Source of the DNA: a bacterium
GTDB lineage: Bacteria > Vulcanimicrobiota > Xenobia > Xenobiales > JADMJV01
Direction of reading: 5' to 3'
NCBI GenBank assembly: GCA_018266105.1
Contig: JAFEBA010000042.1
Location: 22,216-86,215 of the forward strand
DNA: 64,000 bases
In this document: piece by piece, positions 19,813 through 57,951 of the stretch
Layout: each line of letters starts with the position of its first letter
Position numbering within the stretch: position 1 is the first letter of the stretch
Notes under the pieces: generated by a model
What the model saw: the letters and a program-made list of their open reading frames with translations, nothing else
Database searches by the model: none
Told to the model about the DNA's origin: nothing
Made by a program: the position numbers and the translations under genes

Positions 19813-19835
19813 CCGCTGGGAAGGGGTGCATTTAT

Positions 19836-44950: not shown

Positions 44951-47719
44951 TCAGGAGGCGTTGGCCAACCAGCTGACCAGAGTTTGACGCAAAGCCTCGT
45001 TGGAGATCGGTTTGCTGAGATAGTCGTTCATTCCGGCCTCCAAACAGTTCTGACGCTCACCCTTCATCGCGTGAGCGGTTAAAGCGATAATTGGAACCGT
45101 GGGGTTCTGACTCCGGATGCGGCGGGTGGCCTCATAGCCGTCCATTTCGGGCATCTGGCAGTCCATCAGAATGACGTCGTAGTGTAGATGATTCGCCATC
45201 TCCAGAGCCTCGCGTCCATTCGCGACGACGTCTACCTGCGCACCCATTTTCTTAAGCAAGTGAGTGGCCACCTTCTGATTAACCACGTTATCTTCAGCCA
45301 GAAGTACACGAAAGCCAGCGCAAGGGAGTTCGCCGCCGGCCTCGGGCAACTGAACCGAAGCGGGCCGGGCAGTCAGATGCAAAGGCACCTGAAACCAGAA
45401 GGTTGAACCTGCACCGATCTCGCTTTCCACACCGATGGTGCCCTTCATCATTTCCACCAGACTCTTGCAAATTGCCAATCCCAGTCCGGTTCCGCCAAAG
45501 ATGCGCGTGGTGGAGCTGTCCTCTTGAGAGAACTTCTCAAAGAGCAGGGGCACTTTGTCGGCAGCAATTCCCTTACCGGTGTCGTGCACCTCAAAGCGGA
45601 CCAGCCGGGTGTGTTCGAAGGTCTGCACGACTGTCGTGGTCAGCTCTACCCGCCCGCGCTCGGTAAACTTGAAGGCGTTGGTCAACAGATTGAGCAGGAT
45701 CTGACGGAGCCTTCCGGGGTCTCCTTCGACCCAAGCAGGCAACTGAGGATCCAGTCGCATCTCAAACTTCAAGTCGCTCTGGCGGGCGCGGAAGCCCACC
45801 AACTCCGCCAGCTCGCCTAAAGCCCGGGGCAAGTCATAGGGAATCAGCTCGAACTCCAATTTGCCAGCTTCGATCTTGGACAGATCGAGAATGTCATTGA
45901 GCACCACCAGTAAGGATTCGGCGGATTTTTGCACGGTCTGAGCGTATTCGCGTTGAGCCGGACTGAGTTCCGTCTCTAACAAAAGCTGATTCATACCCAG
46001 AACACCGTTGAGAGGAGTGCGAATCTCATGGCTGGTGTTGGCCAAGAACTCGGATTTCAATCGAGAGGCCGTCAGGGCGTGCTGGCGGGCCTGCTCCAGC
46101 TCAAGGTTCTGGTGGTAGAGTTTGTCATTGCTTTCGCGCAGGGCCCGAGTGGCCGAATGAGCCACATCCAGGGCCTTGTAGCGCGTGCTGACCAGACTGG
46201 CCAGAAGGGCGCCCAGCAGGCTGGTGAGAGCCAATCCGAAAAAGAGTAGCAGGCTGGCCTGGTAGGCAAAGGGGCTGGAATGAAAGCCTGCAGTGGCGGC
46301 ATAAACGATGATCCAGCGCCGGCCTCCAAAGAGAAGTTCGTCCTGACGCTGAAGCTTGGGACCGTTCAGAATTCCATCCCGGGATGAGGAGTAAATCAGT
46401 TGTTTTGAGTTCAGGCCCTGGTCATAAACCGAGAAGCCGATCTCAGCCGTATCCGAGGGTAGAATATCCGAAAGCAGGGATCGTCCCACGAAGGGTGAGT
46501 AGACCCAACCTGTGAACTCCCCCGTGCTTTGATCCCAGACGGGCACCAGCAAGAGAAATCCGCTTCCCTGGAGGCGATCCTGCACCAGGCGGAGGATTCC
46601 GGTGACTCTAGAGGATCCAGAATCTCGAGCCGACTCGGCGGCAGACCGGCGCTCGGGTTCGGAGCCGATATCCAGCCCCAAGGCCTGACGATTCTGAGCC
46701 AGGGGTTCGATCAAACGCACCACGTAGGCCCCACGAACCGGGTCCGGCGGACCCAGACGGCGAATCTCGAATTCGGGAGCCACCGAACGGCGAGCCTCGG
46801 CCACAAACGAAGCTTCCTGTTCCGGCCTGACCCGAACGATTAGACCCAGTCCCCGCATTCCGGTGTAACGGCTTTCCACTCTGGCCGTGCGCATATAGTC
46901 GAGCCATTTTTGACGAGTCAGCCTGGGATTAATGCTCACCAGCCCGGCCGCTCCGTAGAGAGCGGCATCATAGCTTTGCAGACGAGCCTTAATCCTTCTC
47001 CCAGCTTCGTCCGCCAACTGGTTAAAGTGCCGGCTGTCATCGCCCCTGGTCTGGGCCCGCAGGATGGTCCAGCCCCAGACCGTTCCGACCAGGGACAGCA
47101 GCAACACGCCGAATGAGAAAGCGTGCCAGAGGTAGTCAGAGGAGAGTTCGGAATCGAGTTGGCCCCGCTGGCGGAACTGCATATAGGCGGTCAAGATGGT
47201 GCCGCCGATGACCAGCACGCCGCAGGAATCTCCAAACCACCAGGTCACCCAGAGGTTCAGGAAGTCCTGTGCGGGCGCCAGACCAACCAGGCAAAGCGAG
47301 CCTGCGCCAAAGCTTGCGGCCAGAACGCAAGCCAACGGACCGGCCTCGGTCAAGCCTTGCAGAAACTCGATCAACCGGAAAGGCTGATGGGGGAAGCCGG
47401 TCTTCTTACGGAAGGCTCGGGCTCCCAGCCAGGCTTGTAGAGATGAACCGGAGGCGATACAGGCGGAACAAAGGACTGAACCGACCTCAAGATCGCCCTG
47501 GCTACTATTGAAGAAATGCAGGTTGAAAGCGAATGACGCAGTCCAGATCGCTGGCCAGAATCGTTCGCCCAGGATGAGCAGGGCCGCCAGTCCGATACCG
47601 GCTGGAGGCCAGACCGGGGTCACGTTGCCGGGTGGAATGGCCATAGCCCGACTCAGGCCTGCGGCAAGCAAGTTGGTGACCAGAATCAGGACAAAGACCA
47701 GAATATCGCGTCGATTCAT
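44951..47719 (-). CDS. hybrid sensor histidine kinase (MASE1-like membrane domain, CHASE-like extracytoplasmic domain, HisKA-HATPase, receiver)
   Basis: [24 protein letters not shown] (MASE1-like). H-box [35 protein letters not shown]. Receiver [11 protein letters not shown]...[13 protein letters not shown]. Confidence 0.9.
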
Positions 47720-47894
47720 CTCTCCCTGGTACTATCGTCTGATCAATCCCCAAGTTAAGTGTCTGCACCAAGCGGGTCGGGCAGCCAGGCCACCTCGAAC
47801 CAGGCGGTAAGCTGGACTTCCCTGAATACAAGCAAACATCGCGGTTTGGAGGTGATTTCAGAGTCTGTTCAGCCACTGAACCTAATCTCAGATC

Positions 47895-48548
47895 ATGAAC
47901 TTCGGCACCATCAACATCTCAGGCGGCGTTTTCAATGGGAACGGCGCCTTCGGCGGCAACCAGGTTCGCGGCAGCGGCAAAGTCGTCGAGGAGCAGCGTG
48001 AAATCGCCGAGCACTTCGACCAGGTAGCCCTGAATGGCTCGGTGGATGTGGAAGTGGTGGCCGGAAAGTCGACCACCGGGGTCAAGGTCCAGGCGGATGA
48101 CAACATTCTGGCACTGGTCAAAACCCGGGTCGAAGATGGTGTTCTCCACGTTAATACAGAAGGGTCCTACAGCACCCAGAACGGACCCAAAGTCCTGGTC
48201 GAGCTCGATCACTCTCTGGTTGGGGCCGCCCTGAACGGCTCGGGTGACCTTAAAATCAGCGGGCAGATTGGCGATCGCTTCGCCGCCAGCCTGATGGGCT
48301 CAGGCGATCTGAGCATGAGTGGCCATGTGGCCAGCCTGGAACTCAGTTCCATGGGTTCAGGAGACTTCAACGGCCGCGGCCTGGTGGCCGATCAGGCCAG
48401 CTTACGCTGCATGGGTAGCGGCGATGCAACCGTTCACGCCGATCGCAGCCTCAATGTCCAGCTGATGGGCTCGGGCGACTGCTATTACTCGGGCAGCCCC
48501 CGAGTGACCAAGTCCATTCTGGGCAGCGGCGAACTCGAGCAGCTCTAG
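47895..48548 (+). CDS. DUF2807 / head GIN domain-like beta-helical protein
   Basis: Five GSGD repeats (GSGDLKISG, GSGDLSMSG, GSGDFNGRG, GSGDATVHA, GSGDCYYSG). No signal peptide. Confidence 0.7.
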   Translation: MNFGTINISGGVFNGNGAFGGNQVRGSGKVVEEQREIAEHFDQVALNGSVDVEVVAGKSTTGVKVQADDNILALVKTRVEDGVLHVNTEGSYSTQNGPKVLVELDHSLVGAALNGSGDLKISGQIGDRFAASLMGSGDLSMSGHVASLELSSMGSGDFNGRGLVADQASLRCMGSGDATVHADRSLNVQLMGSGDCYYSGSPRVTKSILGSGELEQL

Positions 48549-48782
48549 TTCGGCCGCCTTTAGCGCGGATACAGCCGCAGCGACCCGCCTGGAAAAACAC
48601 GATCACTCTTCCCTTTCCGTCAGGAACCGCGTAATCCGAGAAGACCTCGCCAGCCTGAGCATTCCTCCCCTCCCTTTTGACGCAGCTTTGACGCTAAATG
48701 AGCGTGACCATGCTAATTTCAGAATTCGTTCAGGCCCGTCGAATAAATCTCGGCACACACATACAGACAAAGAGGGAAGATC

Positions 48783-49829
48783 GTGAACATCCAATCCACA
48801 CAAAACCGCTTTCAGCCCCCAGCTCCAAAACCGGCGACTCCCGAGCCGGACAAAATACCACCTCTGGACGTGGTCGCTATCGGCGCTCTGGACACCGGAA
48901 CGGGATGGACCGGAATCAATAAGCCCATCCGCGTGACCGACCCCAAGGATCCGAACTCGGCTTACGTAGCCAAGAATAATACCGACGGTGCATTCATCAG
49001 CCTTCATCCCCACCACGATACACGCAAAGACAATATCACCGAAATTGTGATGTCGCACATCGTGGCTGACGAATTTAAAATGCCCTCGCTCACCTTTCGT
49101 GAAGGCAACCTGGTCACACCCGATGGACGCAAATCGCAGGTCGTGCTCAGCCCCTTGCGCACCGACTTCAAAACCCTCGAGCACGTGGCCGTGGAAGAGA
49201 TCAAGGACGGCGACCAGGCCGTGGCCTTAACCGTGCTTCAAGGGGGCCTGCTGGGCGACTGGGACTCCACCTTTAACGACAGCAACCTTTGGGTTCGCAA
49301 CGACGGGGTCGCAATGGGGGCCGATTATGGCTACGCCGGCAAACCGGGCATCAGCTGCCTGGGCGTGCCTTTCGCCAACATCAAAATTATGAAGGCTTTT
49401 GCCAATCGCGAAAACGTCACCAGCATCAGCGACCGCATCAAGAATCTCAGCGATGAAGAGATTCAGGCTATGGTGGAACGCCAGGGCAGCAAGTGGATTC
49501 GGGACTGGAATCCTCAGATCTCCAAAGAACTTTCCGATAACCTCATTTCCAATCGCAACCGGATGCGCCAGCACAACCCGTTTCTAAAATACGTAGAGGG
49601 CTTCCATCCGGGCCTCAAAGGTCCACTGCTGCATTCCAAATATCCAGCTTTCTTCTGGAAATGCAGCCAGGCTGAGGCGCCGCCCTTGAACCGACCGGAC
49701 CAATGGCTGGACGTACTGATTGCCGTGAGCAAATACAAAAAATCCGAGACCATGGCGAAATTCTTCACCTACATGCGGTCCCAGGTGCAGTCGCCTGAAG
49801 AGAAGGCGGCTGAGGCCAAAAAGGGTTAA
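48783..49829 (+). CDS. atypical protein-kinase-fold protein (hypothetical)
   Basis: GTG start 6-7 nt after AGAGGGA. Candidate kinase landmarks in the right order: AYVAKNN (beta3 Lys), EIVMSHIV (alphaC Glu), LLGDWDSTFNDSNLWV (D-x-D...N catalytic loop), GADYGYAG (DFG-like). Confidence 0.6.
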   Translation: MNIQSTQNRFQPPAPKPATPEPDKIPPLDVVAIGALDTGTGWTGINKPIRVTDPKDPNSAYVAKNNTDGAFISLHPHHDTRKDNITEIVMSHIVADEFKMPSLTFREGNLVTPDGRKSQVVLSPLRTDFKTLEHVAVEEIKDGDQAVALTVLQGGLLGDWDSTFNDSNLWVRNDGVAMGADYGYAGKPGISCLGVPFANIKIMKAFANRENVTSISDRIKNLSDEEIQAMVERQGSKWIRDWNPQISKELSDNLISNRNRMRQHNPFLKYVEGFHPGLKGPLLHSKYPAFFWKCSQAEAPPLNRPDQWLDVLIAVSKYKKSETMAKFFTYMRSQVQSPEEKAAEAKKG

Positions 49830-52123
49830 TGCAAATGCACATCACGCGCCTGACCAACCCCAGCCTGCCTCTCCGACGACTGCCCGCGCCCGCTCCCGGG
49901 TCGACCGACAAGGTCGAGCTGGGTGGAAGAACGACTCCCCTCGAACTGATCAAGGCACAGATCCCCTGCCCCAGACAGGATCCCAAAGATCCTCGCTTTG
50001 GCCTGGCCTGCTCAGCTTTCCTTCGCCCCGATCCCTTCTTTAGCGAGACCACCCGGTTGGTGGTGCACGCCGGGCGAACCGGCAACAACCCCAATGGGGT
50101 GATCGAGCTGCCGACTAGCAAACTGAACATGATTGCCACCGATCAGCTTCTCAGCCGAAAGGACCAGGTGCTGCTTGGTTTCGGCAGTCCGCGAGTGAGC
50201 CTGCTCATTCCCGGCCAGAATGGCTACCAGCGTCTCCAATCGTCACCGTTCTTTAGCAAGAAGTCACGTATCATTTCGGGCGAGACCATTCAGTCCGGGG
50301 TCTTCATCCGACCCCGCAACCTGCCAGCCGAGGCATTGCAGGCCTTGACCAAAGCCATGAACGAGCAGGTCGGCCAACGCAGCATCAGCTCGGCCAGGGC
50401 CAATGCCGAAGTGCTCAGCCAGGCGGGGTTCACCTCAGGTGGACGCAAGCTGAGCGGAAAGCTGCTGCCCTTTCGGCTCTTTCGCCAGATCGCGCAAAAG
50501 GGGCTCGAATTTCAGGGCCGGCCGGTTGCCTTCGACATCATCAGCACCAATAATAAAAGCCTGGACGACCACTTCCGCAAGGTCATCGGTCAGGAGCTGC
50601 ATAGTCCCTTTGACCCAAAGGTGGATCCGGAGGTCCCGGCTCCCAACGCGACCAACGCCTACCCAGATCCCTGTCAGCCTTCCGACCCTAACGCCCCTCA
50701 GGTGCGCATCCGCAATTCTCGGCCGGGCCTGGTTGGCAGTAGCCTGCGCTCGCTGCTGGGTGCCCACATCCTGTGGGAAGCTTTGCCCGACCCTAAGCTG
50801 GCTGACATCAACCAGTTTCTTCCTCAAGTGCTCAAGGACAAATTCCACGACGACAAGCCCCTGACGCGCGGAGAGAAGATCAAGTCCATCATCTTCAAAC
50901 CGGCGGTGGTCAGCTTCTTGCGCAAAAACATGGCCAAAGCCTTTGATGATGGGGGTCAGTTCGCCCCCAGACAGCTTGCCTCGATGCTTCGGGTTGCCGG
51001 TGAGGGTGAAGAGGTCCAGGCCGATTCCAAGGGGCGCATCAAATACAACCTGGTGATCTGCGGAGATCAGTCTCCGCGGGGAACGCACATCACCATCGCT
51101 CGCCTGAACGTCAAAAACAACGACTCGAAGGCCGATGATGTGCTCTCCAAACATGTACTGCTGGCCGGCTATGATCCGGATGTTCGCTTTGCCGGCGAAT
51201 GCTGGGCCGAACGCTACTCTCAATCTGACGGCAGCCAGGCCGTGCGCATCCACGTCAACAACAACTCGGGAACCTACCGTCCCAATGGACAGCAGGCGCA
51301 GGCCGCTGGCGAATTTCTGCGCAAGGCTCTACCGGGAGTGGAGATCGTGGTTCATGAGACCACCCCTCCCCCACCCACCGGCAAGCCCGATTACCTGCGC
51401 ACCTATGCGGTCTCGCCAGACCAGGCCACCGCCTTGCGAGGTCTGGCCGGCCAGAAGGTGACGCTCAACGGCGAGGAATACAAAATCCATCAGTTCAAGA
51501 CGGTCGAGTTCGATACCGAATTCTATGACACAGGCGACCGCAAATTGCTTAACGGTGGCGGAATGCTTCGCTCCCGCACCCGCTATAAGCCAGGCACCGA
51601 CCAGGTCAAAACCATCGACATCGAATCCAAACTGCCGCCGGCTCAGCCAGGTCCTTTTCAAGACCGGGCCAAGGGGTTTAGCTTTGACTCCATGGAGGAG
51701 TGGAAGGCCCACCAAACCTGGGTTCTCAGTCCGGAAAGCACGGACGAAGCCGTGGGCTTCGCTCGAACCATGGCGGGTGATGGTCGGCTGGAGGCGGTGG
51801 CTTGCAAGCACTCCATGCGGGAACTGTTCCTGTTAACTCCCAGTCAGCGCTGGTTCGGCTTTTTCAAGCCCCAGTTCATCCTCAGTCTGGACACCAACAG
51901 CATGCGCGCCCCGGGCCTGCCACGCCCTCAGCAGCCGGGAGCGGACACCTACCAAGTGCTCACCCCCCAGGCATTCACAAAACTGCCCTGGACCAAAAAG
52001 GTCGAACCAGAGCGAATCGATCAGCTCAATGACCTGTGTCGGCAGCTCTCACAAAAATTCCAACTCCAGGAGGTGGGCATGTCCCCTTACGCTGAGGGCA
52101 TGGCTCACTGGAAGAAAGGCTAA
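49829..52123 (+). CDS. large hypothetical protein (764 aa) with CYTH-like C-terminal region
   Basis: The ATG overlaps the upstream stop (TAATG). The C-terminal ~230 aa contain VEFDTEFYDTGDRKLLNGGGMLRSRTRYK, resembling the CYTH beta-strand pattern (D.Y.DT....L...g..LR.R). The N-terminal and central regions are unassigned. Confidence 0.65.
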   Translation: MQMHITRLTNPSLPLRRLPAPAPGSTDKVELGGRTTPLELIKAQIPCPRQDPKDPRFGLACSAFLRPDPFFSETTRLVVHAGRTGNNPNGVIELPTSKLNMIATDQLLSRKDQVLLGFGSPRVSLLIPGQNGYQRLQSSPFFSKKSRIISGETIQSGVFIRPRNLPAEALQALTKAMNEQVGQRSISSARANAEVLSQAGFTSGGRKLSGKLLPFRLFRQIAQKGLEFQGRPVAFDIISTNNKSLDDHFRKVIGQELHSPFDPKVDPEVPAPNATNAYPDPCQPSDPNAPQVRIRNSRPGLVGSSLRSLLGAHILWEALPDPKLADINQFLPQVLKDKFHDDKPLTRGEKIKSIIFKPAVVSFLRKNMAKAFDDGGQFAPRQLASMLRVAGEGEEVQADSKGRIKYNLVICGDQSPRGTHITIARLNVKNNDSKADDVLSKHVLLAGYDPDVRFAGECWAERYSQSDGSQAVRIHVNNNSGTYRPNGQQAQAAGEFLRKALPGVEIVVHETTPPPPTGKPDYLRTYAVSPDQATALRGLAGQKVTLNGEEYKIHQFKTVEFDTEFYDTGDRKLLNGGGMLRSRTRYKPGTDQVKTIDIESKLPPAQPGPFQDRAKGFSFDSMEEWKAHQTWVLSPESTDEAVGFARTMAGDGRLEAVACKHSMRELFLLTPSQRWFGFFKPQFILSLDTNSMRAPGLPRPQQPGADTYQVLTPQAFTKLPWTKKVEPERIDQLNDLCRQLSQKFQLQEVGMSPYAEGMAHWKKG

Positions 52124-52127
52124 GACC

Positions 52128-53450
52128 ATGAAGATTCAATCACTGCCGCCTGTCCGGCCACTGCCCCAAATCAGCATCCTGCATTCCCCCCAACCAGTGA
52201 GCTCGGACGAATATCAGCCCGGCCCCCGCGAACGCTGCAAAAGCGCCATTGGCAAACTGGGCGCCGGAATCGGTCTGACCGGGATCGGTGGCCTGGGCTA
52301 CGCAATGGGCGCGGCCATCGGGCACCCACTGGCCGGCAGCCTGGTGGGCGGAGCGCTGGGCACCGTCATCGGAACCCTGGTTGGCCACAAACTGGCCGAC
52401 AAACTGCATCCGGCAGGCAAGCAACCCCTGAAGTCCAGCCAATGGACCGACCCCACCCCGAGCACTTCGGAGAGCGTGGCCGCTATGAAAGCCGGCATCA
52501 GCGAGTTGCAAAATACCCTGCTGGCCTCGGGCCAGATATCCAAACTGGACCGGGGATTCCACCAGAAACAAAACTGGGGAGGCAAAGCCCACATCGAGTT
52601 TAATGCCGACCTGGCCCCTGAACTGCGCTCGGGCTTGCTGGCCAATCTGGCCGGCCAATCTGTGACCAGCGCCGTGCGCTTTTCGAACGGTCAGGGCTGC
52701 CCCTTTCACGACTCCAAGGCCGACGCTCGCGGTATGGCCGTGAAGATGAATGTCGACGGTCAGCAGGCCGATCTGCTGGCTACCGACCACATCACCTTTG
52801 CTCGCAACCCCGTGCAATTTATGAAGTTCGCCAAGGTGGCGGCCCTGATGCAGACCAAAGGGCCGCTGTCCGCTCTGGGTGCGGTCATCCGCAACACCGT
52901 GCACGGTGACTTTAAGGCAGCCGAGGCTCTGAGGATCATGGCGACCCTGATCCGCGACACCAGCGGCGGCATTGAGCATCCGGCCGCCAAGACCTACTGG
53001 ACTCAGGCCCTTCATGTGGGCGACCTGACCGGTCGCTTTGTGTTCAGCCCCGAAAGTGGGGCCAACACAAAGCCTCCCCGCTTCGGCAAAGACCCCAACT
53101 ACTTGCGCAAAAACATGGAGACGGATCTCTCACATGGACCGGTCTCGATGAAGATCGGGTTCGAAGCCTTCACCGAAGACAGTGCCTCCCGCGACGCTTC
53201 GCAGCACGGCCAACACATCACCCTGCCGGTCGGCCGGCTGGTCATCGAGCAGCGCCCGTCGCAAGGACGTGAGGCCGAGGAGCAACTGGTATCGAGGATG
53301 CAGTTCAACCCGGCCAACGGCTTTGATATGGCCGGGCCCTTGAACGAAAGCAACCGAGCTGAAATCTATCGACAGAGCGCGACCAATCGAGGCGCCCTGG
53401 ACTGGTCCGCCCCGGAAGTTCAACAATTTTTTGCAAAGAAGGCCCCATAA
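52128..53450 (+). CDS. catalase-related haemoprotein (mini-catalase) with N-terminal glycine-zipper segment
   Basis: ATG 8-9 nt after GAAAGG. Catalase landmarks in order: RGFHQKQ (distal His), AVRFSNGQG, DARGMAVKM, NRAEIYRQSATNRG (proximal Tyr). N-terminal GAGIGLTGIGGLGYAMGAAIGHPLAGSLVGGALGTVIGTLVG. Confidence 0.8.
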   Translation: MKIQSLPPVRPLPQISILHSPQPVSSDEYQPGPRERCKSAIGKLGAGIGLTGIGGLGYAMGAAIGHPLAGSLVGGALGTVIGTLVGHKLADKLHPAGKQPLKSSQWTDPTPSTSESVAAMKAGISELQNTLLASGQISKLDRGFHQKQNWGGKAHIEFNADLAPELRSGLLANLAGQSVTSAVRFSNGQGCPFHDSKADARGMAVKMNVDGQQADLLATDHITFARNPVQFMKFAKVAALMQTKGPLSALGAVIRNTVHGDFKAAEALRIMATLIRDTSGGIEHPAAKTYWTQALHVGDLTGRFVFSPESGANTKPPRFGKDPNYLRKNMETDLSHGPVSMKIGFEAFTEDSASRDASQHGQHITLPVGRLVIEQRPSQGREAEEQLVSRMQFNPANGFDMAGPLNESNRAEIYRQSATNRGALDWSAPEVQQFFAKKAP

Positions 53451-53451
53451 C

Positions 53452-55788
53452 GTGTTGATCACCACCAGCTCACCCGCCCGTTTGCCCCGGGCCCAGAAAG
53501 CCTTGGAAGAAAACCGCCTGCAAGATGCGGTGGATCTGCTAGAGCAGGCAGGAGCGGACCCCAGTGGTCAGAGTCAGGCCATGCTGGGGACGGCCCTCTT
53601 CCGTCAGGAAAAATATGAGCAAGCCTGTCTCCAGTACCAGGCCGCGCTGAGTAGAGACCCTCACAACGCAATCCTCAAGAACCAGTTGACGCTGGCTGAA
53701 CAGAACCGCCGCTCAAGGGTCGACCAGGATGTGTCCCGCAATGCCGTGCCGGCGCCCAACAAGCCGATCGAGCCCCGCCCAGGTCAAGGCTTCAGCAGAG
53801 TCGGGCAGGCCTTCGTGGAGCCACCCGTGCAAGGCCTCTTGCCCCGGCTGGGTCGGCTGGGCAAGGGTCTGGTCAAGACGGCAGGCTACGCCGCCGGAGC
53901 GGCCATTGGTGGCGTGCTGGGATTAGCCTCGCGGGTCTTCGGGCAACCGGAGAAAGGCGAAATGTGGACCACCTGGTCTCGGAAAAACCAGGTGAAGGGC
54001 CTGATGATGCTGGCCGAGATGCGCCGCAACCTCAACCAGAAGAATCTTTTCCACACCTATCCTGAGGGCGTGCTCACTGGCTTTGCCCGACCTGGCATGG
54101 AAGCTCCCGAATGGACACGATGGGCCCGCACCGCTGACGGCAGCTGGAACAACCCCGCAGACCCCCTGGAGGGGGCGGCTCTGACACGCTTCGGCCGCAA
54201 CATCAACCCAGAGCTGTGCAAAGTGGACGAAGCCAATCTGCTCACCCCCAATCCCCGGGAAATCAGCCGCCTGCTCATGACCCGCGATGAAGGCTTCAAA
54301 GCCGTGCCCTTTCTCAACATGATGGCTGCCGCCTGGATCCAGTTTCAAAACCACGACTGGGTCAGCCACGGCGACAACAATACCAACGAATTCTACGAAA
54401 TCCCGCTGGCACCAGACGATCCCGCACGCCAACGCCTCCATATGACGCACATGTTTGTACCCAAGACCAGTACTGACCCCCTGCGCCAGGCGGGCGAGAA
54501 GATTGCCGCGCCCGTGCACGTCAATGAAGTGACTCACTGGTGGGACGGCTCTCAGATCTATGGCAGCGACCTGGACACCCAGCAGAGTCTGCGTTCGCAC
54601 AAGGACGGTAAACTGACCCTGACCGAGGATGGTCGCCTGCCTGTGGACAGCCAGGGGGTGGAAAAGACCGGATTTCGCCGTAACTGGTGGGTCGGACTCT
54701 CCCTGCTGCACACGCTGTTCAGCCGCGAGCACAACGCCATCTGCGACATGCTCAGACAAAATCACCCGGATTGGGACGATGAAAAGCTTTTCCAAACGGC
54801 CCGGCTGATCAATGCAGCGGTGATGGCCAAGATCCACACGGTGGAATGGACACCAGCGGTGCTCCCAAACAAGACCTTGAACACGGCTATGAACGCGAAC
54901 TGGTACGGTGCCGCCACCAAATGGCTGCGCCACCCCGACCAGCGACAGACGGTGGCCAAATTTGATCTGCACGAAGAGATTTCAGGTGGCCTGGTAGGTG
55001 GACCCCTGGAGAAACACGGAGTTCCCGAATCACGCACCGAGGAGTTCACCTCGGTCTATCGTTTGCACCCGCTTCTTCCAGAGAGCCTGGAATTACGTCG
55101 AATTGGGGCCACCGGTCCGGCCGAACAGGTCCCGCTGGCCCAGACCCGTCAGAAAGCCTCACATGAACTGACCGACAAAGAGAACATGGCCGATCTGCTC
55201 AATAGTTTCGGCATTCAGTCTCCCGGTCAGTTGGTGCTGAACAATTACCCGCAGGCGCTCCAAGATCTGTCCGTCCCCGGTTTTGCCTTTTTTGACCTGG
55301 CGGCCGTGGATATTCTTCGGGACCGTGAAAGAGGCGTTCCGCGCTATAACGAATTCCGTCGACAGCTGCAACTGCAGCCGATCCACAGCTTCGACGATAT
55401 CAGTGACGACCCCAAGGTGGTGGAAAAGCTCAAAGCCGTCTACGGCGAGGATGTGGAGAAGCTGGATCTGCTGGTGGGCACCCTGGCCGAAGGCCATCGC
55501 CCGGAGAACTTTGGTTTTGGTGAGACCCTTTTCCAGGTTTTCATTCTCAACGCCAGCCGACGACTGCAGGACGATCGATTCTACACCACCGACTACAACG
55601 CGGCCACCTATACCCAGGAGGGTCTGGACTGGATCGACCAGGCCAGCATGAAGAGCGTACTGTTGCGCCACCACCCCGACCTGGCCGGCACCGGCCTGAA
55701 GAACGTGACCAATGCCTTTGAACCCTGGGATACGGGCGAGCTGGCCAAGGACCCGGGACGCCACCCACTAAACCAGTACAAGGCTTGA
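53452..55788 (+). CDS. animal-haem-peroxidase superfamily protein of the fatty-acid dioxygenase type (COX / alpha-DOX / LDS-like)
   Basis: GTG start 9 nt after GAAGG; an alternative TTG at 53431 would overlap the upstream gene. AAWIQFQNHDWVSH (distal His), FSREHNAICD, AKIHTVEWTP, TSVYRLHPLLPE (Tyr-x-x-His), RDRERGVPRYNEFR. N-terminal TPR-like helices and a Gly-rich hydrophobic segment. Confidence 0.9.
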   Translation: MLITTSSPARLPRAQKALEENRLQDAVDLLEQAGADPSGQSQAMLGTALFRQEKYEQACLQYQAALSRDPHNAILKNQLTLAEQNRRSRVDQDVSRNAVPAPNKPIEPRPGQGFSRVGQAFVEPPVQGLLPRLGRLGKGLVKTAGYAAGAAIGGVLGLASRVFGQPEKGEMWTTWSRKNQVKGLMMLAEMRRNLNQKNLFHTYPEGVLTGFARPGMEAPEWTRWARTADGSWNNPADPLEGAALTRFGRNINPELCKVDEANLLTPNPREISRLLMTRDEGFKAVPFLNMMAAAWIQFQNHDWVSHGDNNTNEFYEIPLAPDDPARQRLHMTHMFVPKTSTDPLRQAGEKIAAPVHVNEVTHWWDGSQIYGSDLDTQQSLRSHKDGKLTLTEDGRLPVDSQGVEKTGFRRNWWVGLSLLHTLFSREHNAICDMLRQNHPDWDDEKLFQTARLINAAVMAKIHTVEWTPAVLPNKTLNTAMNANWYGAATKWLRHPDQRQTVAKFDLHEEISGGLVGGPLEKHGVPESRTEEFTSVYRLHPLLPESLELRRIGATGPAEQVPLAQTRQKASHELTDKENMADLLNSFGIQSPGQLVLNNYPQALQDLSVPGFAFFDLAAVDILRDRERGVPRYNEFRRQLQLQPIHSFDDISDDPKVVEKLKAVYGEDVEKLDLLVGTLAEGHRPENFGFGETLFQVFILNASRRLQDDRFYTTDYNAATYTQEGLDWIDQASMKSVLLRHHPDLAGTGLKNVTNAFEPWDTGELAKDPGRHPLNQYKA

Positions 55789-56441
55789 ATCCCACACCGG
55801 CAAACGGCCTCAGGCAGGAGCATTCTCCGCAACTGAGAAACTCTTCCTCAAGATCCGCTGAATCCAAGCTTCTTCTCGAGGGCGCCTGGCTTTGCCGAAA
55901 GAGGTGCCCCTTGTCCCACGAAGACCCTTCCTATGCCCCTGGTTCCGTTGTTTATGAGCCGTTCCTAGGCCTTTGTACAGTGGTCAGCTGCAATCTGGAA
56001 ACCATGTTGGGATGCCAACAGCTTTTCTATGAGATCCGGCCCCGTCAGGGAGCGGCCGTGGTCAAGGTTCCCGCCGCACAAATGGCCACCCGAGGCATTC
56101 GGCCCTTAATGTCGGCACAGCAAATCGAAGAGACTCTCAACCGGGCCCAAACCTCTCAGTGGGAGGAAACTGAAGAGAATTACTCACTTCGGCTGCGCCG
56201 CTGGAATCAACTGTTGCGCTCAGAACAGAAGTCCGGGGGCTATGACTTTCTGAGCGAGTGGCATCATCTGGTGGCTCATGGAGTCCGGCTAACCACCCAG
56301 GAGACGGAACTGCACGGAAAGATCCAACGTTCGCTGCTTCAGGAAATAGCCCAGGTCTTGCAAATTTCGCCGAACAAGGCCAGTCTGAGGCTGAGCCGTT
56401 GTTGGGATAACATCAAGAAACCCAAGGAAAAGAAGAAATAA
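55785..56441 (+). CDS. CarD/CdnL family RNA-polymerase-binding transcription regulator-like protein
   Basis: PGSVVYEPFLGLCTVVS...FYEIRP...VKVPAAQMATRGIRPLMS matches the CarD_CdnL_TRCF N-domain pattern. The TTG at 55785 overlaps the upstream TGA (TTGA). An alternative TTG at 55911 is preceded by AAGAGG. Confidence 0.7.
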   Translation: MNPTPANGLRQEHSPQLRNSSSRSAESKLLLEGAWLCRKRCPLSHEDPSYAPGSVVYEPFLGLCTVVSCNLETMLGCQQLFYEIRPRQGAAVVKVPAAQMATRGIRPLMSAQQIEETLNRAQTSQWEETEENYSLRLRRWNQLLRSEQKSGGYDFLSEWHHLVAHGVRLTTQETELHGKIQRSLLQEIAQVLQISPNKASLRLSRCWDNIKKPKEKKK

Positions 56442-56442
56442 A

Positions 56443-56787
56443 ATGCTAAGTATAAAAGCGCCGATGGCTCTTGAGGAGGTCCTTCGCCTCCTCGATATCA
56501 ATCAAAAAGAAGCTGAAGACCTTTTTCGAGAGGCCAAGATCCCCGCCAGTCACGAGCAGTTCTCGGCTCCCGACCTGGCACGGCTGGATATCGCCCTGGA
56601 GCGAGTCTGCCACAAGCTGGCCGGCCGAGATTGGCGACGGGCTGATGGAGCTGACCGCCAGGAGTTCGGTTCCAGCGAAATTTCCGATTACGAACTGTTT
56701 CATCGCAAAACGGGCCAGCGCCAGGTGCTAAAAACCTTCGGTGAGCTTTTACGCTGGGCCGAGGGCGAATACGGATGGAGATCCTAA
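56443..56787 (+). CDS. hypothetical protein (114 aa)
   Basis: ATG 1 nt after the CdnL-like stop. No motif. Confidence 0.5.
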   Translation: MLSIKAPMALEEVLRLLDINQKEAEDLFREAKIPASHEQFSAPDLARLDIALERVCHKLAGRDWRRADGADRQEFGSSEISDYELFHRKTGQRQVLKTFGELLRWAEGEYGWRS

Positions 56788-56790
56788 AAC

Positions 56791-56958
56791 GTGGGAAGTG
56801 CAAACCCTTCGTTCCAGAAGAGAGCGAAAGAACAAAAACGCAAAGAGAAGGCCGAAGCCAAGCGAGCCGTTCGGGATGCGAAAAAGACCGCCAAGACTTC
56901 GGACACTGTGTCTGAGGAAGAATCGCCGACACTCGTTTCCGATGTAAGGGTTGATTGA
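56791..56958 (+). CDS. possible small lysine-rich protein (55 aa), below the ORF-track length cutoff
   Basis: Hand translation from GTG 56791: VGSANPSFQKRAKEQKRKEKAEAKRAVRDAKKTAKTSDTVSEEESPTLVSDVRVD-stop. It starts 4 nt after the upstream stop. Confidence 0.3.
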   Translation: MGSANPSFQKRAKEQKRKEKAEAKRAVRDAKKTAKTSDTVSEEESPTLVSDVRVD

Positions 56959-57053
56959 AACTTCGGGAAGTGTTATGTTCGAGGCTCGTCGCTAGCGGTT
57001 TTTCAACCTTGTAATTCTAAAAGCCTCGAAAATACCTAACTCAAGGAGGCTTC

Positions 57054-57383
57054 ATGGCCTACTCGGATCTCACTCTTCACTGCAGCGACTGCGGTGACTC
57101 CTTTACCTTTACCGCCGGGGAGCAAGAATTTCACGCCCAAAAGGGCTTCAGCAACCGGCCGGGACGCTGCCCGTCCTGCCGCGCCGCCCGCAAAAAGAAC
57201 GCCGGGGACCAGTCCGGTCCGCGCCACGACCGTCAGGGTGGCGGCCAACGCTCGATGCACAGCGCTGTTTGTAGCGGCTGCGGACAGCAGACAGAAGTGC
57301 CCTTCCAGCCCACCCAAGATCGCCCGGTTTACTGCCGCAGCTGCTTTGCCACCCAGGGTGGCAAGCGCACCATGCGTCGTTAA
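57054..57383 (+). CDS. zinc-ribbon domain protein (zf-trcl-like, two CxxC...CxxC modules)
   Basis: ATG after AAGGAGG. LHCSDCGDSFTFTAGEQEFHAQKGFSNRPGRCPSCR and CSGCGQQTEVPFQPTQDRPVYCRSC. Confidence 0.75.
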   Translation: MAYSDLTLHCSDCGDSFTFTAGEQEFHAQKGFSNRPGRCPSCRAARKKNAGDQSGPRHDRQGGGQRSMHSAVCSGCGQQTEVPFQPTQDRPVYCRSCFATQGGKRTMRR

Positions 57384-57404
57384 TCGACTGTCCGACTCTC
57401 AAAT

Positions 57405-57438
57405 GAGAAGACCCTCGGTCAAGTCCGAGGGTCTTCTC
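57405..57438. terminator. bidirectional rho-independent terminator
   Basis: GAGAAGACCCTCGG-tcaagt-CCGAGGGTCTTCTC followed by TTCATTTC, between convergent genes. Confidence 0.8.
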
Positions 57439-57477
57439 TTCATTTCGGGCCCAACAACGGGCTCACTGGCATGCCTG

Positions 57478-57777
57478 CTAGCCTTTGTGAGCCTTTTCAC
57501 GACGGGTTTCCCAGCCCTTCTTGGCTGCCAGGGACCGACTTGCGTGACTCTGGCTGGCGCCCCCCTTGCGGCCCCCCTTGCGGCTTGGCGAAAGATCTTT
57601 GGCATGGCCTCGTCCGGAACCGCTCTGTTTGCCACCACCGTCCTGCTTATTGACGGTGGCCCAGGCGCGCGACTCCGCCTCCTGATGGGAAATCCCTCGG
57701 TCCTCGTATCCTTCGGCGATATGGTCGGCCTGTCGCTTCTGCTTGTCAGTGTACTTGTCTTTGTCTCCTTGGGGCAT
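57478..57777 (-). CDS. small basic stress-protein-like protein (KGG-type motifs)
   Basis: 99 aa, Lys/Gly/Arg-rich. SRKGGRKGG and AAKKGWETRR resemble KGG-repeat general stress proteins. Confidence 0.55.
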   Translation of the reverse strand: MPQGDKDKYTDKQKRQADHIAEGYEDRGISHQEAESRAWATVNKQDGGGKQSGSGRGHAKDLSPSRKGGRKGGASQSHASRSLAAKKGWETRREKAHKG

Positions 57778-57951
57778 GGTAGCGTCTCCCTTTCAGATGA
57801 GTATGGCTCCATTGTATCGAGCCCGCGCTTTACAACATCCCAGCGGCATAACAAGCCAACCGGCACACTGATCCTGGTTGTCCTAGAAGCCTCGTCGTCT
57901 CGGGGCTGAGCTTGTTCACCGCCGGGAAGCGAGCCGACTGGTTGAACGAAG

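What the first reader, a model, noticed from the sequence alone, without database searches (positions are those of the whole stretch)
48783..56441. Coupled operon joining an atypical kinase-fold protein, a CYTH-like giant protein, a mini-catalase, a COX-type haem dioxygenase and a CdnL-like regulator
Seen in sequence:
- Five to seven same-strand genes run with essentially no intergenic space.
- Junctions are TAATG at 49829, a 4-nt gap at 52124-52127, a 1-nt gap or overlap at 53450/53452, a TTGA overlap at 55785, and a 1-nt gap at 56442.
- A 235-nt AT-richer promoter region precedes the first gene.
- No strong hairpin appears until after 57383.

Established knowledge: a catalase-related haemoprotein next to a COX-like dioxygenase is a known two-enzyme oxylipin module in cyanobacteria.

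Inference: I know of no description of that pair being co-transcribed with a kinase-fold protein, a 764-aa CYTH-like protein and a CarD/CdnL-type RNA-polymerase binder. The first three proteins also share unusual acid-free N-termini (MNIQSTQNRF, MQMHITRLTN, MKIQSLPPVR). The unit could be a lipid-peroxide-based signalling or host/prey-directed effector system rather than simple fatty-acid metabolism.
Basis: partly seen in the sequence, partly recalled or inferred. Interest (0 to 1): 0.85.

Follow-up and report, generated by a model that had tools for sequence, protein, structure and literature searches.

The report
Kinase-like/CYTH genes joined to fatty-acid dioxygenase
In an uncultured soil-type bacterium (Xenobia, phylum Eremiobacterota) four tightly packed genes join two previously undescribed signalling-type proteins to a haem enzyme pair that oxidises fatty acids; the neighbouring transcription-factor gene is a separate unit that only happens to lie next door.

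Summary
The packing is real for four genes, A to D (48783-55788): junctions of -1, 4 and 1 nt.

- A has a kinase-like fold (AlphaFold2 pLDDT 83; the 50 best Foldseek hits listed are all kinases).
- B ends in a CYTH/triphosphate-tunnel domain (top 37 PDB hits), but lacks the ExExK hallmark.
- C is a catalase-related haemoprotein (only PDB hit 3e4w, E=8e-9).
- D is a fatty-acid alpha-dioxygenase with all catalytic residues (E=5e-116 to rice alpha-DOX).

The fifth call, E, is CarD/CdnL-like but not in the operon. Its likely start is TTG 55911, 122 nt after D. In relatives E-F-G occurs without A-D.

In relatives the conserved core is A-B-C (five loci). D is adjacent, divergent, 7.5 kb away or absent.

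New findings:
- B's first 460 residues belong to an uncharacterised family (790 cluster representatives), fused to CYTH in two domain orders.
- The A-linked B clade has lost five residues that most of the family keeps.
- A conserved box, TTTCAG-N6-TTCAG, precedes A in five loci.
- A to D share M-x-I, acid-free N-termini.

Function is inferred: membrane fatty-acid oxygenation coupled to a phospho-ligand/kinase pair. A secreted-effector reading is not excluded.

The parts
48717..48733 (+). Conserved upstream box TTTCAGAATTCGTTCAG (TTTCAG-N6-TTCAG), followed about 10 nt later by TAAATC. It lies 49 nt before the start of A and is the probable promoter or operator of the unit.
   Evidence: It is the only alignable element in the A-upstream spacers of five loci. 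There are exact matches before A homologs in L001, L002, L007 and L008. All 9 exact matches in 606 kb are intergenic and 22-67 nt upstream of a same-strand gene start.
48783..49829 (+). Gene A, 348 aa: an atypical protein-kinase-like / PI3K-like fold protein with a disordered 20-residue leader (MNIQSTQNRF...).
   Evidence: No Pfam, NCBIfam or PDB sequence hit. AlphaFold2 gives pLDDT 82.8 and pTM 0.80. The 50 best Foldseek PDB hits listed are all kinases (PI3K p110, H. pylori CtkA, MAPKs, PknA), E about 2e-4. Invariant residues are K64, E87, D161, N165, N168 and D181-Y-G. The word-index search found only 14 relatives, all 49% identical or more.
49829..52123 (+). Gene B, 764 aa. It has a disordered leader (residues 1-47), an uncharacterised enzyme-like 'N-core' (about residues 48-510; nt 49970-51358) and a non-canonical CYTH/triphosphate-tunnel domain (about residues 515-764; nt 51371-52120).
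   Evidence: No Pfam hit for this protein. AlphaFold2 gives pLDDT 87.8. The top 37 Foldseek PDB hits are all CYTH/TTM proteins, best E=5e-7, and none covers the N-core. BFVD gives the same picture. Pfam CYTH matches weakly in 10 of 44 relatives. The N-core family has 790 cluster representatives.
52128..53450 (+). Gene C, 440 aa: a catalase-related ('mini-catalase') haemoprotein behind a Pro-rich leader and a glycine-zipper hydrophobic segment.
   Evidence: PDB 3e4w (M. avium catalase-related protein) scores E=5e-5 with the single sequence and 7.7e-9 with a profile, and is the only hit. Pfam Catalase E=6e-3 and Gly-zipper_Omp E=0.05. The motifs RGFHQK, VRFSNGQG, RGMAVK and NESNRxxIYxQS are invariant in five orthologs.
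53452..55788 (+). Gene D, 778 aa from GTG 53452: an N-terminal TPR, a hydrophobic Gly/Ala segment and a fatty-acid alpha-dioxygenase domain (animal haem peroxidase / COX superfamily).
   Evidence: Pfam An_peroxidase E=3e-116 plus TPR. The best PDB hits are rice and Arabidopsis alpha-DOX, E=5e-116 and 5e-110. The equivalents of OsDOX H157, H311, W315, T316, Y379, H382 and R559 are all conserved in that alignment; residue roles are taken from PMC8720084.
55911..56441 (+). Gene E, 176 aa: a divergent CarD/CdnL-family RNA-polymerase-binding protein. It is a neighbour, not part of the A-D unit.
   Evidence: The top nine PDB sequence hits are all CarD/CdnL, best E=0.004. Relatives are named CarD/CdnL by JGI, and two of them carry a precomputed Pfam hit PF21095 (which I take, from memory, to be the CarD C-terminal domain). 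Relatives sit in E-small ORF-zf_Tbcl or E-F arrays without A-D.
56443..56787 (+). Gene F, 114 aa, of unknown function. It is the conserved partner of E.
   Evidence: It is 42% identical to the gene that follows the E homolog in L012/L013. A 1-nt gap separates it from E.
57054..57383 (+). Gene G, 109 aa: a double treble-clef zinc-finger protein (zf_Tbcl + zf_Tbcl_2), conserved downstream of E.
   Evidence: Pfam E=2e-20 and 2e-19. It is 71% identical to the gene downstream of the E homolog in L010/L011.
57405..57438 (+). Intrinsic-terminator-like hairpin (14-bp stem, 9 G-C pairs, T-rich tail) that ends the E-F-G stretch.
   Evidence: sequence shown.
47856..48548 (+). A second copy of the box (47856-47872, TTTCAGAGTCTGTTCAG), 22 nt before a DUF2807/GIN-domain gene (47895-48548). 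This gene is probably co-regulated with A-D but is not conserved next to A elsewhere.
   Evidence: box; DUF2807, E=8e-30. The upstream neighbours differ in L001, L002, L005 and L007.

Best explanation
A to D form one lineage-restricted transcription unit of Xenobia (Eremiobacterota/Vulcanimicrobiota). It starts at a conserved TTTCAG-N6-TTCAG box before A.

The four genes:
- D is a membrane-tethered fatty-acid alpha-dioxygenase. It should abstract the C2 hydrogen of a free fatty acid through its tyrosyl radical and make a 2-hydroperoxy fatty acid.
- C is a membrane-tethered catalase-related haemoprotein. It most likely converts a fatty-acid hydroperoxide, as catalase-related partners of cyanobacterial dioxygenases and lipoxygenases do.
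- A is a soluble atypical kinase-fold protein.
- B is a soluble two-domain protein. Its N-core is an uncharacterised, widespread, enzyme-like domain. Its CYTH tunnel keeps the basic residues but has lost the metal-binding ExExK and ExE motifs.

The CYTH tunnel probably binds, rather than hydrolyses, a tri- or polyphosphate or nucleotide ligand.

I infer that A and B form a sensing or phosphotransfer pair that acts on, or controls, the lipid-oxidising step carried out by C and, where present, D.

The CarD/CdnL-like gene E, together with F and G, is an independent neighbouring module.

Shown: gene packing, folds, family assignments, catalytic-residue conservation in D, and synteny patterns. Inferred: co-transcription, all substrates and products, and any A-B-C interplay.
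For: Packing: junctions of -1, 4 and 1 nt.

Synteny:
- A-B-C is kept in the same order in the window, L001, L002, L005 and L007 at only 50-77% protein identity. In L007 the genes overlap by 4 nt.
- D is adjacent in the window and L001. In L005 it sits in a divergent MFS-D pair that shares A's upstream spacer. In the P0004 locus it is 7.5 kb away.

Promoter box: it occurs only before A, not before B, C, D or E.

Folds and families:
- A.
- B.
- C.
- D: with residue roles from PMC8720084.

Membrane segments: C and D both carry Gly-rich hydrophobic segments after their leaders.

A lipid link for the N-core: one family member (P0119) fuses it to an Aas-like acyltransferase plus AMP-binding module.

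CYTH and N-core coupling: the two domains are fused in both orders, N-core-CYTH here and CYTH-N-core in P0080 and Acidimicrobiia.

[quoted passage not shown] 2014, as cited in PMC9579011.

E as a separate unit.
Against: - There are no transcript data, so co-transcription rests on spacing and synteny only.
- D is missing within 10 kb in L002 and L007, so C may not need D and may use another substrate such as H2O2 or other peroxides.
- The functions of A and of B's N-core are unknown.
- In A, the residue aligned with the kinase catalytic Asp is Thr163 in a weak hhalign match, so A may be a pseudokinase.
- B's clade has lost five residues that most of its family keeps (N122, R143, C188, R262, W437), so its N-core may be partly inactive.
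- All synteny evidence comes from one narrow clade of metagenome contigs, so shared ancestry inflates the apparent conservation.
Confidence: 0.5

Rival explanations
1. A to D are exported effectors or toxins of a Xenobia regulon aimed at another cell (a eukaryotic host or prey). A shared promoter box switches them on. A shared N-terminal leader (M-x-I, acid-free, Pro/Gln/Ser-rich, disordered) targets them for export. A would then be a PI-kinase-like lipid or protein kinase, and D and C would make oxylipins from target-cell lipids.
For: - The M-x-I, acid-free N-terminus occurs in 4 of 4 cluster genes against 2 of 46 other window ORFs.
- It occurs in 19 of 160 called genes in the loci analysed, and 11 of those are A-D homologs.
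- Ile3 is invariant in all five C orthologs although the rest of the leader drifts.
- The leaders are disordered in the models: A residues 1-20 and B residues 1-47.
- The same box precedes other genes with such N-termini: L002 18268 MRIQSQ..., L006 MKIQNT..., L014 MIIVGN....
- A's closest folds include PI3K and the H. pylori kinase CtkA, which I recall as being secreted.
- The window also encodes ankyrin-repeat proteins, a clostripain-like peptidase and a polymorphic-toxin-type DSP phosphatase.
- N-core relatives occur in Saccharimonadia, other CPR lineages, Bdellovibrionales and Obscuribacterales.
- From my own knowledge, an aliphatic residue at position 3 or 4 and no acidic residue in the first 12 are two of the three classic P. 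syringae type III export rules.
Against: - No secretion machinery was found.
- The only FHIPEP hit in the window is an orphan FlhA C-terminal domain on an unrelated N-terminus.
- The leaders of A and B are Pro-rich, not Ser-rich, so they fail the third rule (direct count from the translations: 1 and 2 Ser in the first 50 residues).
- C and D carry membrane-anchor-like segments, which suits resident membrane enzymes.
- A/U-rich second and third codons could equally be a translation-initiation feature.
- The sample of box-bearing genes is small.
Confidence: 0.2
2. The cluster is a chance or historical juxtaposition of two unrelated units: an A-B pair of unknown function, and a conventional oxylipin pair C-D like the cyanobacterial dioxygenase plus catalase-related tandem. 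There is no functional coupling between the two.
For: - D moves independently: it is absent in L002 and L007, on the opposite strand in L005, and 7.5 kb away in the P0004 locus.
- Long-form and short-form B relatives stand alone, without A, C or D.
- A in L008 sits beside an unrelated 479-aa protein.
Against: - C stays glued to B, not to D. B-C junctions are 4 to 96 nt or overlapping in five loci, including the two that lack D.
- The P0004 locus keeps A-B and D but has no C within about 7 kb downstream.
- The box occurs only before A.
- All four proteins share the N-terminal signature.
Confidence: 0.15
3. The unit is a peroxide or oxidative-stress defence module. C acts as a small catalase or peroxidase, D as a peroxidase, and A and B as stress-sensing regulators.
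For: - C belongs to the catalase superfamily and D to the haem peroxidase superfamily.
- Ferritin lies directly upstream of A in L007, and hemerythrin lies nearby in the P0004 locus.
Against: - D keeps the full alpha-DOX fatty-acid site (catalytic Tyr and the carboxylate-binding His and Arg) and is far closer to alpha-DOX (E=5e-116) than to true peroxidases (E about 1e-31).
- From my own knowledge, characterised catalase-related mini-proteins act on fatty-acid hydroperoxides and have little catalase activity.
- The iron-protein neighbours are not conserved across loci.
Confidence: 0.1

Closest known systems
[quoted passage not shown] 2014 J Biol Chem 289:13101, cited in PMC9579011)
   Same: An animal-haem-peroxidase/COX-superfamily fatty-acid dioxygenase is encoded next to a small catalase-related haemoprotein. 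In the window and in L001, C sits directly upstream of D.
   Different: - D here is of the alpha-dioxygenase type (about 40% identical to plant alpha-DOX, with all alpha-DOX residues), not a 10S-DOX.
- Both proteins carry long leaders and Gly-rich hydrophobic segments, and D also has a TPR.
- C is linked more tightly to A-B than to D.
- No activity has been tested.
Plant and cyanobacterial fatty-acid alpha-dioxygenases (rice 4KVJ, Arabidopsis 4HHR; CalDOX and LepDOX, PMC8720084)
   Same: The catalytic domain aligns over about 540 residues (E=5e-116). The distal and proximal His, the catalytic Tyr, and the carboxylate-binding His, Arg and Thr are all conserved.
   Different: - D has an N-terminal extension of about 230 residues with a TPR and a hydrophobic segment.
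- It sits in an operon with kinase-like, CYTH and mini-catalase genes.
- Eremiobacterota is not among the five bacterial phyla that PMC8720084 lists for alpha-DOX.
CYTH / triphosphate tunnel metalloenzymes (ThTPase, YgiF, class IV adenylate cyclase, VTC4; PMC8233210)
   Same: The predicted fold of B residues about 515-764 matches 37 CYTH structures. The LRxR motif and several tunnel Lys and Arg residues are invariant.
   Different: - The hallmark N-terminal ExExK is absent: the sequence is PDYLRTY, and only the Asp is invariant.
- The C-terminal ExE is T/E-P-Q.
- In this it resembles the AtTTM1/2-type cluster that lacks both motifs (PMC8233210).
- The domain is fused to a 460-residue domain of unknown fold.
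Atypical kinase-fold proteins (PI3K/PI4K catalytic domains; H. pylori CtkA, PDB 3AKK)
   Same: The predicted bilobal kinase-like fold and the conserved Lys, Glu, Asn and D-Y-G residues lie where kinases have VAIK, the alphaC Glu, the catalytic-loop Asn and DFG.
   Different: - No sequence-level membership in any kinase family.
- TM-scores are only 0.28-0.41.
- The catalytic-loop spacing is non-canonical (GDWDSTFNDSN).
- The word-index search found only 14 relatives.
CarD/CdnL RNA-polymerase-binding regulators (M. tuberculosis CarD, Myxococcus CdnL)
   Same: Gene E aligns with the RNAP-interacting domain and part of the C-terminal domain of CarD structures. Relatives are annotated as CarD/CdnL.
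   Different: - E is very divergent: it falls below Pfam and NCBIfam thresholds.
- It forms its own E-F-G module in Eremiobacterota.
- It is not part of the A-D unit.

Membership tests
Protein-kinase-like superfamily (gene A) | Bilobal kinase fold | tested here: met
   The AlphaFold2 model has pLDDT 82.8 and pTM 0.80. The 50 best Foldseek PDB hits listed are all kinases, with probability mostly 0.94-1.0 (one at 0.85), E about 2e-4 to 1e-3 and TM 0.25-0.41. This is a prediction, not a solved structure.
Protein-kinase-like superfamily (gene A) | Canonical catalytic residues: ATP-binding Lys, catalytic-loop Asp and Asn, and the DFG Asp | tested here: inconclusive
   K64, E87, N168 and D181-Y-G are invariant. 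N168 and DYG align with the kinase catalytic-loop Asn and DFG. The position of the catalytic Asp aligns with Thr163 in weak alignments (E=0.12). D161 or D166 might substitute.
CYTH / triphosphate tunnel metalloenzyme (gene B, C-terminal domain) | Eight-stranded beta-barrel tunnel fold | tested here: met
   The top 37 Foldseek PDB hits are all CYTH/TTM proteins (E=5e-7 to 5e-4, TM to target up to 0.74). BFVD hits are VTC-like, SPX-domain, CYTH and mRNA 5'-phosphatase or capping-enzyme proteins. Pfam CYTH matches weakly in 10 of 44 relatives.
CYTH / triphosphate tunnel metalloenzyme (gene B, C-terminal domain) | N-terminal ExExK hallmark motif for metal and substrate binding (PMC8233210) | tested here: not met
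   The first strand reads PDYLRTY, or DHQKTF in relatives. Only the Asp is invariant (alignment A3).
CYTH / triphosphate tunnel metalloenzyme (gene B, C-terminal domain) | Basic tunnel residues (xRxR and Lys/Arg) and the acidic ExE motif | tested here: inconclusive
   LRxR (R71, R73), K84, K91, R103, K150 and R154 are invariant. The place of ExE is T-P-Q in the window's clade and E-P-Q in long-form relatives.
Catalase-related ('mini-catalase') haemoproteins (gene C) | Sequence homology to the catalase core or to a solved mini-catalase | tested here: met
   3e4w (M. avium subsp. paratuberculosis catalase-related protein) scores E=5.4e-5 with the single sequence and 7.7e-9 with a profile, and is the sole hit. 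Pfam Catalase E=6e-3 is below the family cut-off.
Catalase-related ('mini-catalase') haemoproteins (gene C) | Distal His and proximal Tyr (with Arg) haem ligands | tested here: inconclusive
   RGFH145QK and R410-x3-Y414 are invariant in five orthologs. They sit where catalases have the distal His and the RxxxY proximal motif, but the PDB alignments cover only residues 172-383, so the assignment is by motif reading.
Fatty-acid alpha-dioxygenase (gene D) | Catalytic Tyr, distal and proximal His, and carboxylate-binding His, Arg and Thr (OsDOX Y379, H157, H382, H311, R559, T316; PMC8720084) | tested here: met
   All are conserved in the HMMER alignment to 4kvj: IQFQNHDW, KIHTVEWT, TSVYRLH and ASRRL. 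Numbering was mapped with the 3-residue offset of the PDB chain.
Dioxygenase plus catalase-related tandem (oxylipin module) | The two genes are adjacent and conserved together | tested here: inconclusive
   They are adjacent in the window and L001. In L005 they are on opposite strands about 5 kb apart, flanking A-B. In the P0004 locus D lies 7.5 kb from B and no C-sized gene lies near B. D is absent within 10 kb in L002 and L007, where C persists.
Dioxygenase plus catalase-related tandem (oxylipin module) | The catalase-related protein converts the dioxygenase's hydroperoxide product | not testable with these tools
   Needs recombinant enzymes and LC-MS.
CarD/CdnL family (gene E) | Homology to the CarD RNAP-interacting domain and C-terminal domain | tested here: met
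   The top nine PDB hits are all CarD/CdnL (best 2lt1, E=0.004; residues 50-142 of the long ORF). Two relatives carry a precomputed Pfam hit PF21095, and JGI names relatives CarD/CdnL/TRCF. E is below threshold in Pfam and NCBIfam.
   A 122-nt gap separates D from the likely start at 55911. E homologs in L010-L013 have no A-D nearby and keep F and/or G instead.
Type III-secreted effector (N-terminal export rules, recalled from the P. syringae literature) | Aliphatic residue or Pro at position 3 or 4; no acidic residue in the first 12; more than 10% Ser in the first 50; a secretion system present | tested here: inconclusive
   The first two rules are met by A, B, C and D. The Ser rule fails for A and B (1 and 2 Ser in 50) and is met by C (6 in 50), by direct count from the translations. 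No injectisome genes were seen; there is only an orphan FlhA C-terminal domain.

The most novel reading that the evidence does not exclude
Xenobia possess a previously unrecognised regulon of exported proteins. It is marked by a TTTCAG-N6-TTCAG promoter box and an M-x-I, acid-free, disordered N-terminal leader. A to D would be a co-delivered lipid-attack or lipid-signalling kit for use on another cell: a PI-kinase-like kinase, a CYTH-bearing enzyme, and a haem pair that makes oxylipins or aldehydes from fatty acids.
Probability: 0.15. Interest if true: 0.85.

Novelty: new variant of a known kind. Interest (0 to 1): 0.6.

Why it matters
- **Oxylipin biology.** Bacterial oxylipin pathways are known mostly as isolated enzyme pairs. 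Here the haem pair is genetically subordinate to two proteins of signalling-type folds. One of these folds has a sparse relative set (14 relatives found), apparently confined to Eremiobacterota-type bacteria. The other carries a widespread domain of unknown function. This gives a concrete handle on that roughly 800-cluster family: fusions to CYTH in both domain orders and to an Aas-like acyl-activating module point to phosphate-ligand and lipid chemistry.
- **Enzymology.** It offers a testable alpha-dioxygenase from a phylum with almost no cultured members.
- **Regulation and targeting.** The shared promoter box and N-terminal signature, if they hold genome-wide, would define a regulon and possibly a targeting signal in Eremiobacterota.

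Tried and rejected
- Pfam, NCBIfam and PADLOC scans of A, B, E and F gave nothing usable. There was no defence-system match.
- Sequence and profile searches of PDB with A, B and the isolated CYTH-like domain gave no significant hit. The residue-level CYTH register therefore had to be read by eye.
- A genome-contig scan with A alone found no relative.
- Foldseek against PDB and BFVD found no fold match for B's N-core.
- L008's 479-aa neighbour of A is not a B relative.
- The tetrad-lost short clade (P0042) has no A-like neighbour. Loss of the Cys site is therefore not tied to gaining A.
- No Rfam family occurs in 47000-58500. The A leader folds somewhat better than shuffles (z=-3.1), but its sequence is not conserved apart from the box.
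- The FHIPEP hit that first looked like type III secretion machinery is only an orphan FlhA C-terminal domain.
- The sigma-70 consensus scan found no promoter before A.
- Brash et al. 2014 could not be read and is cited second-hand.
- My first box search used the wrong spacer, N7. This was corrected to N6.

Full report
**What is in the sequence**

On the + strand the window carries seven co-directional ORFs between 48783 and 57383.
- Four are essentially abutting. A (48783-49829) ends in TAA, whose last base begins B's ATG (TAATG). B (49829-52123) is followed after 4 nt by C (ATG 52128-53450). C is followed after 1 nt by D (GTG 53452-55788).
The TTG at 55785 is merely the first in-frame start.
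- The publicly called product is 176 aa (P0059) and its 17 relatives are 160-196 aa. TTG 55911 has an AAGAGG ribosome-binding site 7 nt upstream. About 122 nt therefore separate D from E.
- E and F are 1 nt apart. F and G are 266 nt apart. A strong hairpin with a T-tail at 57405-57438 follows G.
- Relatives are named, by their sources, Candidatus Xenobia, Eremiobacterota or Vulcanimicrobiota.

**Gene A**

- It has no Pfam, NCBIfam or PDB sequence match. The word-index search found only 14 relatives, all 49% identical or more. That search has limited sensitivity, so remoter relatives may exist.
- An AlphaFold2 model built on that alignment is confident (pLDDT 82.8, pTM 0.80; residues 1-20 disordered).
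- The 50 best Foldseek PDB matches listed are all kinases: PI3K p110 catalytic domains, H. pylori CtkA, MAPKs, PknA and PKA. Probability is mostly 0.94-1.0, E about 2e-4 to 1e-3, but TM is only 0.25-0.41.
- Invariant K64, E87, N168 and D181-Y-G lie where kinases have the ATP lysine, the alphaC Glu, the catalytic-loop Asn and DFG. Two weak alignments map SN168xW...D181YG onto kinase SNI...DFG, but they put Thr163 at the catalytic-Asp position.
- The fold assignment stands. Catalytic competence is open.

**Gene B**

- The model is confident (pLDDT 87.8; residues 1-47 disordered).
- Its C-terminal domain, about residues 515-764, matches 37 CYTH/triphosphate-tunnel structures and nothing else. These include ThTPase, YgiF, class IV cyclases, VTC4, AtTTM3 and SaTTM, best E=5e-7. 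BFVD gives the same picture.
- Ten of 44 relatives touch Pfam CYTH weakly.
- The hallmark ExExK of CYTH enzymes (PMC8233210) is absent. The first strand is PDYLRTY, or DHQKTF in relatives. The later ExE is T/E-P-Q.
- LRxR and six further tunnel Lys and Arg residues are invariant. PMC8233210 describes a CYTH cluster (AtTTM1/2) that likewise lacks both acidic motifs.
- I therefore read this domain as a phosphate-ligand binder with doubtful canonical catalysis. This is an inference, and the register was assigned by eye.

**B's N-core**

- Residues about 48-510 have no fold match in PDB or BFVD and no Pfam family.
- They do define a sizeable family. A profile search of 1.84 billion representatives found 790 at E<=1e-3 and 167 at E<=1e-30, mostly stand-alone proteins of 440-560 aa.
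- A genome scan places members in Acidimicrobiia, Chloroflexota, Bdellovibrionales, Obscuribacterales and several CPR lineages. The word-index search added one labelled deltaproteobacterial (locus L009).
- Across 131 members, K352, K441 and H442 are invariant, and S480 and E457 are 98-99% conserved.
- A second set (N122, R143, C188, R262, W437) is conserved in about 86-88% of members. It is replaced in exactly the clade that sits next to A (window, P0002-P0008, P0021), and in one unrelated short clade.
- Cys188, which is Ser in the window, caps the N-terminus of a predicted helix.
- Two fusions are informative. P0119 is Acyltransferase + AMP-binding + N-core, an Aas-like lipid-handling architecture. 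P0080 and four Acidimicrobiia loci carry CYTH before the N-core, the reverse of the order here.
- Two domain orders argue for a functional link between CYTH and the N-core.

**Genes C and D**

- C hits only the M. avium catalase-related protein 3e4w (E=5e-5 with the single sequence, 7.7e-9 with a profile).
- It keeps catalase-like RGFHQK, VRFSNGQG, RGMAVK and NESNRxxIYxQS motifs in all five orthologs.
- A Pro-rich leader and a glycine-zipper hydrophobic stretch precede the catalytic part.
- D has a TPR, a Gly/Ala hydrophobic segment and an An_peroxidase domain (E=3e-116).
- Its best solved relatives are rice and Arabidopsis alpha-dioxygenases (E=5e-116 and 5e-110). These are far ahead of peroxidases (1e-31) and cyclooxygenases (1e-22).
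- Every residue that PMC8720084 lists as functional in OsDOX is conserved: H157, H311, W315, T316, Y379, H382 and R559.
- D is therefore very probably a fatty-acid alpha-dioxygenase.
- A COX-like dioxygenase working with a catalase-related protein is a described cyanobacterial tandem (Brash et al. 2014, cited in PMC9579011; I could not read the original).

**Gene E and its neighbours**

- E's top nine PDB sequence hits are all CarD/CdnL proteins, best E=0.004. JGI names relatives accordingly, and two relatives carry a precomputed Pfam hit PF21095.
- In L010/L011 the E homolog (59% identical) is followed by a 49-aa ORF and a G homolog (71% identical). In L012/L013 it is followed by an F homolog (42% identical).
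- No A, B, C or D relative lies within about 7-8 kb upstream of E in those loci.
- E-F-G is thus an independent conserved module that merely abuts D here.

**Synteny of A to D**

| Locus | Arrangement |
|---|---|
| window | A-B-C-D |
| L001 (B 66% identical) | A-B-C-D, then the contig ends |
| L002 (54%) | A-B-C, then an AI-2E transporter |
| L005 (50%) | D and an MFS gene divergent from A-B-C, sharing the spacer |
| L007 (54%) | A-B-C with 4-nt overlaps; no D within 10 kb |
| P0004 locus | A-B; D 7.5 kb away on the other strand |
| Long-form B (about 880-900 aa) | Stands alone |
| Short-form B | Stands alone |

The most divergent A (L008) sits beside an unrelated protein.

The conserved core is therefore A-B-C, with D facultative. 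All of this comes from one narrow clade, so phylogenetic inertia contributes.

**Two further shared features**

First, a conserved box upstream of A.
- The spacers upstream of A are unalignable except for a box, TTTCAG-N6-TTCAG(G), followed about 10 nt later by TAnnnT.
- Exact copies precede A in the window (48717-48733), L001, L002, L007 and L008. L005 has a variant.
- All nine exact matches in 606 kb of held sequence are intergenic and lie 22-67 nt upstream of a same-strand gene. One precedes the window's DUF2807 gene (47856-47872).
- None precedes B, C, D or E. This fits a unit that begins at A.

Second, a shared N-terminal signature.
- A, B, C and D all begin M-x-I, with no acidic residue in the first 12 positions and a disordered Pro/Gln/Ser-rich leader.
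- This holds for 4 of 4 cluster genes here against 2 of 46 other window ORFs.
- It holds for 19 of 160 called genes in the loci analysed, 11 of them A-D homologs.
- Ile3 is invariant in all five C orthologs.
- Several other box-bearing genes share it: MRIQSQ..., MKIQNT... and MIIVGN....
- The meaning is unknown. It could be a targeting or export signal, or a translation-initiation preference for A/U-rich early codons.

**Interpretation**

- The best-supported reading is a lineage-specific four-gene unit. A membrane-tethered alpha-dioxygenase and a catalase-related haemoprotein oxidise and convert fatty acids. A kinase-fold protein and an N-core/CYTH protein supply a phosphate-ligand-linked catalytic or regulatory function.
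- The chemistry of D is well grounded. That of C is grounded by family precedent. That of A and B is inference.
- The effector reading gains circumstantial support from the box, the leaders, the PI3K/CtkA-like fold, and eukaryote-type neighbours: ankyrin proteins, a C11 peptidase and a DSP phosphatase.
- It lacks any identified export machinery. The FHIPEP hit is an orphan FlhA C-terminal domain.
- No defence-system model matches, and no known RNA family lies in the region.

**Novelty**

- The D+C pairing is a known kind.
- Its subordination to two undescribed protein families, the two-order CYTH/N-core fusion, the clade-specific loss of a conserved site in B, and the shared box and leader are new observations.
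- I rate it a new variant of a known kind, of moderate to high interest, with a less likely but much more interesting effector-regulon reading left open.

Noticed in passing
window 47856-47872 and 48717-48733; L001 8902-8918; L002 8850-8866 and 18228-18244; L007 9936-9952; L008 9871-9887; L012 7014-7030 (-): A conserved box, TTTCAG-N6-TTCAG(G), is followed about 10 nt later by TAnnnT. All nine exact copies in 606 kb lie 22-67 nt upstream of same-strand gene starts. It looks like a lineage-specific promoter or operator that defines a small regulon.
   Followed up: partly
window 48783, 49829/49835, 52128, 53452; orthologs in L001, L002, L005, L007; also L002 18268, L006 12950 and 19870, L008 11011, L010 11537, L012 7061: The N-termini read M-x-I-[QSNT] with no Asp or Glu in the first 12 residues and a disordered Pro/Gln/Ser-rich leader. 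Four unrelated proteins of the cluster share this, as do a few other genes, some of which also carry the upstream box.
   Followed up: partly
window 49829-52123 (B residues 122, 143, 188, 262, 437): The A-linked clade of B has replaced five residues (N, R, C, R, W) that are conserved in about 86-88% of 131 family members. It keeps a second conserved set (K352, K441, H442, E457, S480). This suggests partial loss or change of one site.
   Followed up: yes
L016-L019 (Acidimicrobiia MAGs), about 10001-11980; protein P0080; protein P0119: The CYTH-like domain precedes the N-core in Acidimicrobiia and in P0080, the reverse of the order here. P0119 fuses the N-core to an Acyltransferase + AMP-binding (Aas-like) module.
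   Followed up: partly
window 1154-3475 (+): This 773-aa ORF has a C-terminal 330 residues that match the FlhA/SctV cytoplasmic domain (FHIPEP, E=3e-55). Its N-terminal 430 residues are unrelated: there is no export-gate membrane domain, and the region contains a C2H2-like CxxC...HxxxH motif.
   Followed up: partly
window 7244-7909, 16062-17849 (-), 17980-21368: The window also encodes eukaryote-interaction-type proteins: a polymorphic-toxin-type DSP/PTP phosphatase, a clostripain-like C11 peptidase, and two ankyrin-repeat proteins (one with DUF4253). L006, which carries a long-form B, also has Ank and C11 genes.
   Followed up: no
window 55911-57383; L010 8001-9155; L012 8001-8818: A divergent CarD/CdnL-like gene is conserved with a small ORF (F) and/or a double treble-clef zinc-finger gene (G) across the relatives examined. 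It may be a lineage-specific transcription module.
   Followed up: partly
L008 10001-12450: The most divergent A homolog also has the box upstream. It is followed by an unrelated 479-aa protein (faint PAD_porph hit, N-terminus MRIAPSS...), and a gene with a faint NolX hit lies 5 kb downstream.
   Followed up: no
window 48549-48800: The 5' leader region of A folds more stably than shuffled controls (-71.9 kcal/mol, z=-3.1). It has no Rfam match, and outside the box it is not conserved in relatives.
   Followed up: partly
L005 135-467 and 9863-11209: A 110-aa glycine-zipper protein (MQITRTG...) lies convergent to D, and a 448-aa unknown protein follows C. Both are additional genes of unknown function in one relative of the cluster.
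   Followed up: no
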